The notes under the pieces were generated by a model, which saw nothing but the letters and a program-made list of their open reading frames with translations, was not told the DNA's origin and searched no databases. This document shows, piece by piece, positions 16,798 to 55,476 of a DNA stretch of 64,000 bases (within the stretch, counting starts at the first letter, position 1; each line of letters begins with the position of its first letter). The stretch is taken from positions 68,572,001 through 68,636,000 of the forward strand of contig NC_043004.1 of NCBI RefSeq assembly GCF_006345805.1. Reading direction: 5' to 3'. Origin of the DNA: Octopus sinensis (Eukaryota). A program made the translations under genes and the position numbers.

Positions 16798-16923
16798 AGT
16801 GTATACATACATACATGAGTAAAGAGTATACATACATACATACATACATACATACATACATACATACATACATACATACATACATACATACATACATACA
16901 TACATACATACATACATACATAC

Positions 16924-18095
16924 AATCTACAGCTACTCTATCAAGACTATAAGTTGAGGTTTATTTCCGTAATTTTGGGACACTGGGATATATAATGCAC
17001 TGCTGAAATACTAAACTTGAGAAATTAGGCTTCTCAAAATTAGAAAGCATAAAACTGATTCGAAGACTACAGATCCAGGCCATCACCGGAACTGTCAACA
17101 TCTGTAAACCGTTCCAGAAGTTTATCATTTAAGTTTATACGTGCATGTCTAGATATGCGAGTATATGTATGAGAAGACATACATAAAACAAAACATACAA
17201 ATCTGCACAAATACATTTATACAGACATACAAAAATACCCTGTTGATATTGTTGAGATTCTAATGAAGGAGCTTTAGATTTAGGTTAGAAACCGATTCTT
17301 TCTCTCTATTGGCAAGAAATCTTGAATATAACTGAACATGACATACATACATACATACATACATAATACATACATACTACATACATACATACATACATAC
17401 ATACATACATACATACATCACATACATACATACAATCTACAGCTACTCTATCAAGACTATAAGTTGAGGTTTATTTCCGTAATTTTGGGACACTGGGATA
17501 TATAATGCACTGCTGAAATACTAAACTTGAGAAATTAGGCTTCTCAAAATTAGAAAGCATAAAACTGATTCGAAGACTACAGATCCAGGCCATCACCGGA
17601 ACTGTCAACATCTGTAAACCGTTCCAGAAGTTTATCATTTAAGTTTATACGTGCATGTCTAGATATGCGAGTATAGTATGAGAAGACATACATAAAACAA
17701 AACATACAAATCTGCACAAATACATTTATACAGACATACAAAAATACCCTGTTGATATTGTTGAGATTCTAATGAAGGAGCTTTAGATTTAGGTTAGAAA
17801 CCGATTCTTTCTCTCTATTGGCAAGAAATCTTGAAATATAACTGAACATGACATACATACATACATGCATGCATGCATGCATACATACATACATACATAC
17901 ATAATACATACATACATACATACATACATACATACATACATACATACATACATACATACATACATACATACATACATACATACATACAAAAGTACCCTAT
18001 TTATGTGGTTGAAATTCGAATGTAGTAGCCTTGGATCAAGGTTAGAAACCGTCTGTTTGGCAAGAAATCTTGAAATAAAACTGAATACTGACATA
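16924..18095 (+). mobile_element. R4/Dong-type (RLE) LINE 3' ends in (CATA)n: two tandem ~420-bp copies plus a 3'UTR fragment
   Basis: 16924-17342 is nearly identical to 17434-17852. Translation reads NLQLLYQDYKLRFISVILG..LEKLGFSKLESIKLIRRLQIQAITGTVNICK, homologous to 39015-39425. A third UTR piece lies at ~17990-18095. Confidence 0.75.
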
Positions 18096-21790: not shown

Positions 21791-21877
21791 TATATATCTA
21801 TTTATTCAATTTGCCTCTTACCTTTTACTTGTTTCAGTCATTAGACTGTGGGCATGTTGAGGCACCGCCTTGGTATA

Positions 21878-21956
<79 letters not shown>

Positions 21957-22374
21957 TAATAATAATTTGAGGGAATATTATTCTTAACTTACAGGGAAAA
22001 ATTCAATTTAGAAATACTAAATCAAATTTCACAAAATATAATATATATATATATATAAAAATTAGAAAAAACACCTTTTATCAATTCAAAATGAACAATT
22101 AAATTACACCATCTAGAAAATTACATATAATAAAAATATAAAAAATAAAATAACAATAATATGCCGATGATTAAGTAATGTGCAAAATAATAATAAAAAC
22201 GTATAAATATATACCGTAACAACAGAGATTTTTTACGCACGACTAATTGAAATACACGGAGACAGAAGTTAGTAAATGAGTTAAAGAGAGAAAGAGAGAG
22301 ATAAAACCAAATATATACGTTTTTATTATTATTTTGCAATTTACTTAATCATAGGTATATTATTGTTATTTTAT

Positions 22375-23493
22375 TTTTTATATTTTTATTTGATTTGATT
22401 TTGATTTTGATTTTTCCAGTTTCAGCTAAAGAGCTGTGGCCATGCTGGGGCACCGCCATTTGGTTTGCTACACAGGTTTACCTCACGGATGCTTTTTAGC
22501 AAACGCCATCTGATGCATGAGAGAGCTCGATGCAGCTGCCCTCATCTGCACCCCCTGCCGTGAAGTTGGTTCATCCGGGACACCTGACAGGAAGAGATCC
22601 AGTCCTACTTTAAAGACATCCGCATCTACACCATGCAGGTCCCTCAGGTTCTTCGGGAGGACATTGAAGAGCCGTGGGCCTCCGAAGCCCAGGCTATCAC
22701 AATATCTTGTCCCACACCTCGATGGCAAATTTGGAGTCCTTGGTACTACGCAGTGGTGTCCGGTTCTGGCGTTTGTGTGACTCTCGATGCCAAAGTCTGT
22801 GACAAGACCTTCCAGGATCTTCCAGATATATACCATGGCATATCTTTCTCGCCTACGCTCCAGGGAATAGAGCTTTAATCTCTTGAGTCTCTCCCAGTAG
22901 CTCGTATGCTGCACAGAGGCTATCTTCCTCGTGCAGCTCCATTGGATCGCCTCAAGCTCCGCGATCAACCCGACACTGGATGGTGACCATAGCTGAGAGC
23001 AATAGTCAAAGTGGCTTAGGACAAGTGTCCTCCAGAGGACCATCATGGTTTCCTGTTCTCTTGTTCTAAAGGTTCTAAGAATCCATCCAGCCAGCCGTCT
23101 GCATCCCATTGTCAGCCTAGCAACATGCACACGAAAGGTCGCGTCACCACTCATGCGAACACCCAGGTCACGCACTGATTGTGCCCCCGGGACCGCAATC
23201 CCTCCGGGTCCAGTGTATTCCTCGGGCACTGCATTCAGTCCTGCATGCTGATAGTATAAAGCTTGAAACTTTTCAGCATTGAACTGCATGCTATTCCCCT
23301 CAGCCCACTTGTATATTTCGTCCAGCCCACACCGCAGGCGCCCAGTGTCCTCAGGGCTCCGTACTGCCTGTGAAACCCTTGCATCATCCGCATAACCTGC
23401 GACCGTGGCTCTCCGCGCGGCTGAGGGCATGTCCGAGAGGGCCATTATGAACAGTAGTGGTCCCAAAACAGTGCCCTGTGGAACACCGCTCAC
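22375..23493 (-). mobile_element. 5'-truncated CR1/L2-group LINE (RT C-terminal half, 3'UTR, simple-repeat tail)
   Basis: Uninterrupted 336-codon frame with SGVPQGTVLGPLLF, YADD, FNAEKFQ, DLGV, DYCSQLWSP and YWERLKRLKLYSLERRRERY. The 3'UTR stem-loop is followed by an (ATCAAA)n-type tail. Confidence 0.95.
22483..23493 (-). pseudogene. Reverse transcriptase ORF2 fragment (no true start; truncated retrocopy)
   Basis: ORF track 22483..23493 begins mid-RT at the GVPQG motif. Confidence 0.9.
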
Positions 23494-23554
23494 TTTTCTA
23501 GATGGTGTACTTTAATTGTTCATTTTGAATTGATAAAAGGTGTTTTATTCTAAT

Positions 23555-23629
<75 letters not shown>

Positions 23630-27036: not shown

Positions 27037-27074
<38 letters not shown>

Positions 27075-27082
<8 letters not shown>

Positions 27083-27270
27083 CACGCACTCATACTTAAG
27101 CACACCACACACATAAATGTATACATATATTTATATGTGTGTCTAAGTGTGTGAGAGTATGTGTATATATATATATTCATATACTAACAGACAGCTTTAG
27201 ATATTTTCATATGCGCTCAACCTAATATATGCATATATATTTACGCACGCACAAAGACAGGGACGTATAT

Positions 27271-27315
<45 letters not shown>

Positions 27316-27535
27316 TATATATATATATAATATATATATATATACACGCACTCATACTAAGCACACACACACACATAAATGTATACATATATTTATATGT
27401 GTGTCTAAGTGTGTGAGAGTATGTGTATATATATATATATATTCATATACTAACAGACAGCTTTAGATATTTTCATATGCGCTCAACCTAATATATGCAT
27501 ATATTTACGCACGCACAAAGACAGGGACGTATATA
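27075..27535. repeat. Tandem duplication of a ~190-bp unit bounded by (TA)n
   Basis: ~27080-27270 and ~27342-27532 are nearly identical, differing mainly by small indels. Confidence 0.85.
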
Positions 27536-28240
27536 TATATATATTATATATATATGTATATATATTATTTATATATATATATATATACTTATATATATAT
27601 ATACATATATATTGTGTGTATGTATGTAATGTATATATATATATATGTATATATATGTAAAGCGAAAGAGACAGAGGGAGAGATTCGCTTATGTTGATAC
27701 ATTTTAAACTTTCATACGCACCCCTCACACACACACATACACACACAAACATACATATACGTTTACATGTGTATGTGTCTGTATAGATTATTACATGCAT
27801 ATGAACAAAGACACACATGCGGAAGCACAAACCCACACATATATACACACGCACACGCATATATTACTACACACTTATATCTATACCACTATAGTCTCGT
27901 TCTCCCACTCGCCGACTCAACCTAATTGCTTGTCACTAAATTTCAAAATGTCTGAATTTTTCTCTTCATTTTTGTCGTTAGATATTCGTTACATTCTTTC
28001 TATTTGTCTTAAAGCAGAAATAAAATAGAAAGCAAATATTTTTGACGTGAATGTATTTTTCTTCCTTCTGCTGTTGACATTCTAGAATAATTCTACACAA
28101 GGTAGAATAAGAAAAAGAAAATTGATGTCTTGTTTATTTCTGTGATATTTTAAAATGGTTCTGAAACGTCTTCTCTTGTATTTTGTATTTGTGTATCCAT
28201 TTTACACATTTTCTACTGTCTCTATAACTTTCCAATTCAT

Positions 28241-54416: not shown

Positions 54417-54606
54417 ATTATATAAAAGGGCTTAGTAAAATAAATTACTTTGCCGCATACTGAACTCATTAGAAATAGCAGCTAAAAAAAACTTTTTAAA
54501 AACTATTTCTAATACTTAAAGAAAACCTCTCTCATATAGTGTTTGCTCAATTCAACTCACGCAAATATGGGGGTAGAGACATAAAAAATCAAGTGCAAAG
54601 GTTATT

Positions 54607-54659
54607 TGAGAACGTACGTTTCAAGATTAGTCAAAGTCGACATTTCTATCATCAGCTCA
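54607..54659 (-). ncRNA. Hammerhead ribozyme motif, canonical core
   Basis: Reverse complement of 55095-55147. Confidence 0.8.
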
Positions 54660-55094
54660 GAACTCCCTGGTTTGGATTTGAAAACACTGAAAGTGGGAGC
54701 ATACCCTTTCGGCTTCCTCTCGCTTCTGAAGATCTGCTCGTAACTAACAGTGCCAACAAACTCAAAAATGCAAGCGAAGAATTTCTGCTCTCCCCTTTTT
54801 CCACCAGCGTGGGTTAAAATCAGTAAACACTATGCTTTTTTCGGTAAAATCCGCGGCATTATATAGAAGAGATGAATTATAATTTCAACAATTGAGGGTA
54901 AAATTAATTAATTAATCAATTTCACCAAGTATTCAGTATGCAAAGGGACCATTTAAGGCGAATTCAAATTATTACATTATATAAAAGGGCTTAGTAAAAT
55001 AAATTACTTTGCCGCATACTGAACTCATTAGAAATAGCAGCTAAAAAAAAAAAAACAGTGTTTCAGTTATTTTCAAATCCAAACCAGGGAGTTC

Positions 55095-55147
55095 TGAGCT
55101 GATGATAGAAATGTCGACTTTGACTAATCTTGAAACGTACGTTCTCA
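55095..55147 (+). ncRNA. Hammerhead ribozyme motif, canonical core
   Basis: tgag-CTGATGA(55099-55105)-t.aga.aat.gtc...gac.taa.tct.t-GAAA(55132-55135)-cgtacg-TT-ctca. Stem III lies in the 10-nt palindrome aacgtacgtt. Confidence 0.8.
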
Positions 55148-55432
55148 AATAACCTTTGCACTTGATTTTTTAATGTCTCTACCCCCATATTTGCGTGAGT
55201 TGAATTGAGCAAACACTATATGAGAGAGGTTTTCTTTAAGTATTAGAAATAGTTTTAAAAAAGTTTTTTTTAGCTGCTATTTCTAATGAGTTCAGTATGC
55301 GGCAAGTAATTTATTTTACTAAGCCCTTTTATATAATGTAATAATTTGAATTCGCCTTAATGGTCCCTTTGCATACTGAATACTTGGTGAAATGATTAAT
55401 TAATTAATTTTACCCTCAATTGTTGAAATTAT

Positions 55433-55476
<44 letters not shown>

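What the first reader, a model, noticed from the sequence alone, without database searches (positions are those of the whole stretch)
22375..23493. CR1-type LINE copy that looks strand-specifically A-to-G hypermutated (a possible genomic fossil of ADAR hyper-editing)
Seen: the frame is stop-free for 336 codons, is G- and CpG-rich relative to the window, and has Ala/Gly/Arg/Val at positions that are normally conserved. Examples: YADDARV (GCA AGG; typical YADDTK = ACA AAG), WAEGNSMQFN (typical NNM.FN), DLGVRMSGD, FGGPRLFNVLP, ATVAGY, SCTRKI. The departures I examined (T>A, K>R/G, N>S/D, I>V, Q>R, Y>C) are all reachable by A>G on the LINE sense strand, and A>G cannot create a stop from a Trp, Gln or Arg codon the way G>A or C>T can. 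Established: inosine is reverse-transcribed as G, and coleoid cephalopods edit RNA heavily. Inference: an edited LINE transcript was retrotransposed, fixing the edits in DNA. The ancestral residues are my estimate from family motifs.
Basis: partly seen in the sequence, partly recalled or inferred. Interest (0 to 1): 0.82.

Follow-up and report, generated by a model that had tools for sequence, protein, structure and literature searches.

The report
ADAR-edited LINE copies fixed in DNA
One truncated jumping-gene (LINE) copy has 58 of its A letters changed to G on one strand only, six other copies of the same family in this genome carry the same kind of scar, and the neighbouring letters match the taste of the RNA-editing enzyme ADAR, so edited RNA was likely copied back into DNA that is likely inherited.

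Summary
Confirmed and extended. The window holds a 5'-truncated copy of a young LINE family (about 2,450 copies span the region). Against its nearest paralogues 58 of 316 sense-strand A are G and 0 of 236 T are C; background in 100 ordinary copies is 0.33% and 0.26%. GC-biased conversion, symmetric drift and a G-rich family state are refuted. G-biased pattern searches found six more independent copies (three subfamilies, six other 5' ends) with 14-42% A>G; three T>C control patterns found none. In those six, with the search columns masked, editing rate by 5' neighbour is T 0.35 > A 0.25 > C 0.13 > G 0.08 and 3' G is highest: the published ADAR order. Flanks are unedited. Best reading (0.85): ADAR hyper-edited LINE RNA was reverse-transcribed into the germ line, in at least 0.2% of copies. 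The dsRNA partner is not identified. Ten literature searches found APOBEC G>A scars in LTR elements but no ADAR A>G scars in LINE copies. This scan noted a similar single L1 copy in another genome (unchecked).

The parts
22391..23493 (-). 5'-truncated LINE copy (3' third of an endonuclease + reverse transcriptase element)
   Evidence: 92-94% identical to 39 other scored places, whose matches mostly begin at about 23497 and which mostly continue further 5'
22483..23493 (-). ORF2 fragment, 336 codons plus stop; 42 codons changed in residue and 13 silently against the family; edits even over codon positions (19/21/18)
22928..23434 (-). dense A>G block, 50 of 168 conserved A columns
22440..22927 (-). 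sparse A>G zone, 8 of 134 conserved A columns
22391..22415 (-). 3' microsatellite tail shared with the family
   Evidence: same short-unit tail after the same 3' end in paralogues
23494..23574 (.). 5' flank: part of an AT-rich foldback arm that the LINE interrupted; no A>G
   Evidence: inverted match to 22041-22120, 3 differences, none A>G
22311..22390 (.). 3' flank: rest of the interrupted foldback arm; no A>G
   Evidence: inverted match to about 22129-22208, 9 differences, none A>G
22041..22208 (.). twin arm of the foldback, which stands in for the empty site; about 8 bp of it (22121-22128) have no counterpart at the insertion, and no target-site duplication is seen
   Evidence: assumes the two arms were alike before the insertion

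Best explanation
This is a 5'-truncated LINE insertion with a dense A>G excess on its sense strand, likely made when ADAR deaminated many adenosines of a double-stranded LINE transcript and that RNA was then likely reverse-transcribed into germ-line DNA, inosine being copied as G. Shown: strand-specific A>G excess, confinement to the element, 5' truncation with the family's 3' tail, recurrence in seven independent copies, neighbour order equal to ADAR's. Established: inosine is read as G by reverse transcriptases; ADARs edit up to 50-60% of A in long dsRNA and favour young repeats. Inferred: the RNA stage and the enzyme; ORF2 protein supplied by an unedited RNA or made before editing; and the duplex, most likely a read-through transcript folding onto a nearby 5'-truncated inverted copy at the source locus, which would explain the blocks of editing.
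For: Window copy 58/316 A>G, 0/236 T>C against 202/61,689 and 108/41,186 in 100 of 100 positionally listed ordinary copies, highest A>G rate 2.7%. Six more copies: C16 148/821, C13 73/173, C7 33/206, C3 21/70, C8b 48/254, C10142 21/151, with T>C 17/1,148 in all six; the excess stays when the search columns are masked (137/762, 54/138, 17/171, 13/58, 42/226, 17/124). All seven have different 5' ends, come from three subfamilies and lie in both genomic orientations. T>C control patterns: 5 hits, all one subfamily with two diagnostic T>C, none hypermutated, then 0 and 0 hits; they stood as far from ordinary copies as the A>G patterns. Context in the six other copies, masked: 5' T .352, A .252, C .127, G .082 (G p 5e-11); 3' G .249 highest (p .001); background A>G is flat.0026-.0040. 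Human ADAR1: 5' U>A>C>G, 3' G>C~A>U (PMC3113232 Table 3); the same motif across metazoans (PMC9989829). Sites shared between copies: 145 against 103 expected. Copy C16 has 0 of 237 A changed, then a block at 55-60%. Flanks: 0 A>G among 12 differences from the twin arm. ADAR-type deaminase domains are in G000. Run X1 holds 0.61 of the sampled words though only 25% of the 31-mers lack a private A>G. Long copies with a truncated inverted copy downstream within 4-10 kb exist: 2 pairs among 100 listed places.
Against: No RNA was seen edited and no reads were laid; X1 is only guessed to be DNA, may be the assembly's own sample, and three other runs of that sample hold 0.20-0.30, no more than the unedited part. 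In the window copy alone the 5' T preference is absent (8/46) and the 3' G preference is not significant (p 0.3). Pooled 3' order puts C last, not U. No source locus or duplex partner was identified: no inverted family copy within about 5 kb of any edited copy, and an ordinary copy folds to no helix above 11 bp within a 300-nt span, with equal pairing at edited and unedited sites. Five A>G patterns, some tuned on observed hot spots, faced three T>C patterns, so power was unequal. Of 13 other places hit by A>G patterns, 6 are clear, 4 ambiguous (p 0.05-0.25), 2 are subfamily variants, 1 gave no alignment to the family. Human L1 RNA was reported unedited by ADAR1 in cell culture (PMC5224506).
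Confidence: 0.85

Rival explanations
1. Edited LINE RNA was reverse-transcribed but the cDNA converted part of an already inserted copy, or reverse transcription switched between edited and unedited templates; same enzyme, different route into DNA.
For: Sharp blocks: C16 unedited for its first 237 A columns, C8b for its last 68, window copy nearly so at its 3' end.
Against: In five of seven copies edits begin within 5 A columns of the truncation point and in four run to within 2 A columns of the tail, as expected for a new insertion; duplex limits explain blocks as well.
Confidence: 0.05
2. An error burst of the LINE reverse transcriptase (C put opposite template A, for example under dTTP shortage) made the A>G without any deaminase.
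For: It would also be sense-strand specific, confined to the element and private to single copies.
Against: The 5' T>A>C>G and 3' G preference equals ADAR's; rates reach 55-60% in blocks, the ceiling reported for ADAR on long dsRNA; other change types are not raised.
Confidence: 0.04
3. Adenines were deaminated in DNA (ADAR on an RNA:DNA hybrid, or on exposed sense-strand DNA during or after insertion).
For: ADAR action on hybrids is cited in the literature (passage in PMC10209271); context would be ADAR-like.
Against: The DNA strand paired with RNA during target-primed reverse transcription is the antisense one, which would give T>C on the sense strand, and none was found; hypoxanthine in DNA is repaired (recalled); flanks are clean.
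Confidence: 0.03
4. Assembly or polishing artefact, for example RNA-derived sequence written into the assembly.
Against: Seven places on six contigs, always on the LINE sense strand whichever the genomic strand, each with its own junctions; X1's contigs total about one genome in size and hold edit-bearing words.
Confidence: 0.02
5. GC-biased gene conversion, ordinary drift, or a G-rich subfamily.
For: L063 and L069, and the T>C hits, show that subfamily variants can mimic two or three such changes.
Against: T>C 0 of 236; 28-29 of 29 paralogues have A at nearly all sites; no sibling shares the G sites.
Confidence: 0.01

Closest known systems
APOBEC-edited LTR retrotransposons/ERVs in vertebrate genomes (PMC4866542; passages)
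   Same: A host deaminase leaves a dense, strand-biased, context-biased scar in single retroelement copies that integrated and are inherited.
   Different: There G>A made on cDNA of LTR elements in vertebrates; the screen left out LINEs, found nothing in 19 invertebrates and does not mention ADAR (0 occurrences). Here A>G, in a non-LTR element, in an invertebrate, likely made on RNA.
ADAR hyper-editing of repeat-derived dsRNA (PMC9989829, PMC3113232, PMC9068888; passages)
   Same: Clusters of A>G, 5' U>A>C>G and 3' G preference, young LINE/SINE targets, up to 50-60% of A; ubiquitous repeat editing in squid.
   Different: Described in RNA against an unedited genome; here the pattern is in the genome assembly itself.
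A-to-G hypermutated retroviral proviruses (Kim et al. 1996, title seen only in a reference list; Felder 1994 and Hajjar & Linial 1995 recalled)
   Same: A>G clusters attributed to dsRNA adenosine deaminase and fixed by reverse transcription.
   Different: Exogenous retroviruses in cell culture, not endogenous LINE copies recurring across a family in an animal genome.
ADAR1 restriction of human LINE-1 (PMC5224506; passages)
   Same: ADAR meets LINE RNA.
   Different: Reported as editing-independent with no editing seen in 2.5 kb; the authors allow rare edited molecules, which is what these copies would record.

Membership tests
ADAR hyper-editing signature | A>G far above all other change types, in clusters | tested here: met
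   58 of 65 classed differences in the window copy; 402 of 1,991 A in seven copies; clustering beyond 20,000 shuffles
ADAR hyper-editing signature | one strand only (the RNA strand), no T>C counterpart | tested here: met
   T>C 17 of 1,384 in seven copies; three control patterns found no T>C hypermutant
ADAR hyper-editing signature | 5' neighbour U>A>C>G | tested here: met
   .352/.252/.127/.082 in six copies with search columns masked; window copy alone shows low G and high A but not high T
ADAR hyper-editing signature | 3' neighbour G favoured, U disfavoured | tested here: inconclusive
   G highest (p .001 pooled), but C is as low as T when masked; not significant in the window copy
ADAR hyper-editing signature | long double-stranded substrate | tested here: inconclusive
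   no internal hairpin, no local inverted copy; inverted pairs exist at other loci
ADAR hyper-editing signature | inosine in RNA, dependence on ADAR | not testable with these tools
   deaminase-domain genes present; no RNA or enzyme test
Non-LTR retrotransposon (LINE) insertion | ORF2 with APE endonuclease and reverse transcriptase; ORF1 upstream | tested here: met
   copy L098: 1,039-aa frame with Exo_endo_phos and RVT_1; upstream frame with a weak CCCH finger match below cut-off
Non-LTR retrotransposon (LINE) insertion | variable 5' truncation, common 3' end with simple-repeat tail | tested here: met
CR1 clade | RT phylogeny groups with reference CR1 elements rather than L2, Crack, Daphne or others | not tested
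   no named references among 120 listed homologues except a hypothetical protein of Argonauta hians, 65%
CR1 clade | 3' microsatellite tail, target-site duplication absent or unclear (feature recalled) | tested here: met
   tail present; no duplication, about 8 bp missing against the twin arm; shared with related clades, so not decisive
APOBEC-edited retroelement | G>A on the sense strand | tested here: not met
   G>A 1 of 265

The most novel reading that the evidence does not exclude
In this octopus-type genome ADAR hyper-editing is a recurring germ-line mutagen of an active LINE family: a few per thousand new insertions are copies of hyper-edited RNA, so the genome keeps dated single-molecule records of past germ-line RNA editing, the RNA-level counterpart of APOBEC scars, probably to be found across animals and not yet described for LINEs.
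Probability: 0.65. Interest if true: 0.85.

Novelty: new variant of a known kind. Interest (0 to 1): 0.76.

Why it matters
It would be direct genomic evidence that A-to-I edits can be written back into heritable DNA through retrotransposition, a route often proposed but, in the papers searched, not shown for LINE copies. It would show that ADAR edits LINE RNA in the germ line or early embryo and that such RNA can still integrate, making editing-dependent restriction testable: 42 residue changes in 336 codons likely kill the copy without any stop codon. The scar is easy to screen for in any assembly, so editing level, site preference and duplex extent could be compared across subfamily ages and across coleoids and other animals. 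Such copies also matter in practice: reads from them look like hyper-edited RNA and they inflate repeat-age estimates.

Tried and rejected
Sibling search: the edited 151-nt stretch (40 of 700 candidates scored) and a six-site pattern found no copy sharing the window copy's G sites. Local duplex: no inverted family copy in the window or within about 5 kb of the six other edited copies. Internal folding does not explain the sites (pair span limited to 300 nt). Parent locus: the nearest ordinary copy differs at 9 non-A>G sites from the window copy, so no parent was found among the roughly 160 ordinary copies held. Open frame as evidence: rejected, 21 of 67 ordinary copies are open. L063 and L069 rejected as subfamily variants; L072, L073, L075, L082 left undecided; L066 dropped because it did not align to the family reference; eleven loci that repeat places already held, and L013 (near-twin of L012), were left out of the counts. 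Sequencing runs: no RNA holder listed; the 23 runs other than X1 hold 0.17-0.30, about the unedited share, and are no evidence on presence of this copy in other individuals or species; no read-level table was obtained. Host gene: 66 of 78 window frames of 110 aa or more were scanned; none gave a credible host-gene domain, which does not exclude short exons. Literature: ten searches found no report of ADAR-type A>G clusters in genomic LINE copies; Carmi et al. 2011 and Kim et al. 1996 are not held; no supplements were read, and the all-mismatch tables in the supplements of PMC4866542 may bear on novelty.

Full report
Observation. The minus strand of 22486-23493 is a 336-codon open frame that matches Pfam RVT_1. 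A DNA search of the own genome G000 (2.72 Gb) gave 6,046 candidates, of which 40 were scored; the best paralogues are 92-94% identical. In each of 29 fetched paralogues 58-64 of 66-81 differences to the window copy are A>G on the LINE sense strand. Against the commonest base per column 60 of 69 differences are A>G, while each paralogue differs from that yardstick at 5-17 places with 1-4 A>G. At conserved columns 58 of 344 A are G, 0 of 245 T are C, 1 of 265 G is A and 2 of 255 C are T. The edits are clustered, densest in 22928-23434 (50 of 168) and even over codon positions, with 42 residue changes and 13 silent ones.

Anatomy. The copy ends at 23493 where most paralogues continue 5' and carries the family's 3' end and microsatellite tail. 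It sits in one arm of an AT-rich foldback; the twin arm at 22041-22208 stands in for the empty site and suggests loss of about 8 bp and no target-site duplication. None of the 12 flank differences from the twin arm is A>G. Longer copies encode an APE endonuclease plus reverse transcriptase of 1,039 aa and an upstream frame with a weak CCCH match. The only named close homologue is from Argonauta hians (65%), which fits an octopus-type host; this is an inference. The clade name CR1 was not tested.

Background. 2,456 places match an unedited 27-mer of the family with up to 2 mismatches. The first 100 listed, all on contig C1, were fetched and all 100 analysed: A>G 202 of 61,689, T>C 108 of 41,186, highest single A>G rate 2.7%, none hypermutated, neighbour rates flat. 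This sample is biased against editing at the 27-mer itself. Another 54 ordinary copies show no skew. No sibling of the window copy was found.

Recurrence. Five patterns that demand G at two or more (three) of five or six A positions hit 13 other places. Six are clear hypermutants: C16 148 of 821 A, C13 73 of 173, C7 33 of 206, C3 21 of 70, C8b 48 of 254, C10142 21 of 151, with T>C 5, 0, 5, 0, 6 and 1. Four are ambiguous, two are subfamily variants and one did not align. The seven copies have different 5' ends and edit sets and come from three subfamilies, so they are separate events; they share sites 145 times against 103 expected. Three mirror patterns for T>C gave five hits from one subfamily, none hypermutated, then none and none; one search shows the mirror patterns stood 5 mismatches from most ordinary copies, like the A>G ones, though they were fewer and not tuned on hot spots. 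Five edited copies span the counted site, so the frequency is at least about 0.2%; 0 of 100 puts a rough ceiling near 3%.

Enzyme signature. With the searched columns masked and the window copy left out, the rate by 5' neighbour is T 76/216, A 121/480, C 48/379, G 31/377, and by 3' neighbour G 89/357, A 92/479, T 52/333, C 41/281. The window copy alone has 5' G 8/90 and 5' A 25/84, no 5' T excess, and a non-significant 3' G excess. Human ADAR1 prefers 5' U>A>C>G and 3' G>C~A>U, and 50-60% of A in long dsRNA can be edited (PMC3113232, abstract, passages and Table 3). The same motif and a preference for young repeats hold across metazoans including octopus (PMC9989829, passages), and squid edit repeats in all tissues (PMC9068888, passages). 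G000 encodes adenosine-deaminase domains at several loci.

Is it DNA? Only 25% of the 31-mers of 22900-23545 lack a private A>G and 21% occur in paralogues. Run X1, guessed to be DNA and about one genome in contig size, holds 0.61 of 64 sampled words, so it carries edit-bearing words. It may be the assembly's own sample, three other runs of that sample hold 0.20-0.30, and contigs drop rare variants. No read-level table was obtained, so this point is supported but open. Presence in an assembly implies most cells of the animal, hence germ line or early embryo (inference).

Mechanism. Most likely a LINE transcript became double-stranded, ADAR converted 14-42% of its A (up to 60% in blocks), and the RNA was then used for target-primed reverse transcription. 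The partner strand is unknown. The element has no long hairpin of its own and no edited copy has an inverted neighbour, so the duplex would have formed at the source. A human study finds sense-antisense duplexes rarely edited (PMC13445718, abstract), which favours fold-back in a read-through RNA; two of 100 listed places are long copies with a truncated inverted copy downstream, and C16's switch from 0 of 237 to about 55-60% is what a 5'-truncated partner would give. This step is inference. Rivals are conversion or template switching with edited cDNA (0.05), reverse transcriptase error bursts (0.04), deamination of DNA (0.03), artefact (0.02) and biased conversion or drift (0.01).

Comparison. 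It works like the APOBEC scars of LTR elements, but that screen covered LTRs, sought G>A, found nothing in invertebrates and does not mention ADAR (PMC4866542, passages). A trace survey treats A>G clusters as RNA editing and G>A clusters as DNA editing (PMC2873906, passages). Human L1 RNA was reported unedited by ADAR1 (PMC5224506, passages). Fixation of edits by reverse transcription is discussed as a hypothesis (PMC10209271, passages). A-to-G hypermutated retroviral proviruses are known (title in the reference list of PMC3185545; the rest recalled). A recent octopus repeat annotation lists recently active CR1 families and does not mention editing (PMC13282606, passages). Ten searches found no report of ADAR-type scars in genomic LINE copies; subscription papers, Carmi et al. 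2011 and all supplements were not seen. This scan noted one similar L1 copy in another genome (e1-8045548; unchecked, not used as support) and nothing earlier in this genome.

Verdict. Real, recurrent and strand-specific, with ADAR's neighbour order. New variant of a known kind; confidence 0.85 in the mechanism; interest 0.76.

Noticed in passing
window 22041-22208 with 22311-22390 and 23494-23574: AT-rich foldback element; the LINE sits in one arm, so the other arm shows the empty site.
   Followed up: partly
L098:2380-6236 (G000 C8): Copy with an unbroken 1,039-aa ORF2 frame and an upstream frame with a CCCH-like finger; the family looks recently active (ordinary copies about 1% from each other).
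   Followed up: partly
L102 (C2502), L104 (C8702) and C12622 rows: Adenosine-deaminase-domain matches with internal stops, one spanning the whole profile in about 1 kb: possibly processed ADAR-family pseudogenes.
   Followed up: no
L110/L111 and L146/L147 (G000 C1): Long copies with a 5'-truncated copy in opposite orientation downstream, 4-10 kb apart: candidate sources of fold-back RNA. L203/L204 is a third inverted pair, head to head.
   Followed up: partly
L091:1-5177 (G000 C3): The short edited copy lies beside three other family copies, all in the same orientation.
   Followed up: no
L195, L196, L197 (G000 C1): Three copies 70-80 kb apart with the same length and the same counts of changes: probably a segmental triplication.
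   Followed up: no
window 16830-17944, 54417-55435, 27038-27611: A tandem duplication of about 510 bp at 98%, a nested inverted repeat at 98%, and another tandem pair at 93%.
   Followed up: no
window 21823-21869: Older, 72% identical copy of the family's 3'-terminal sequence, suggesting an older relative or a SINE sharing this tail.
   Followed up: no
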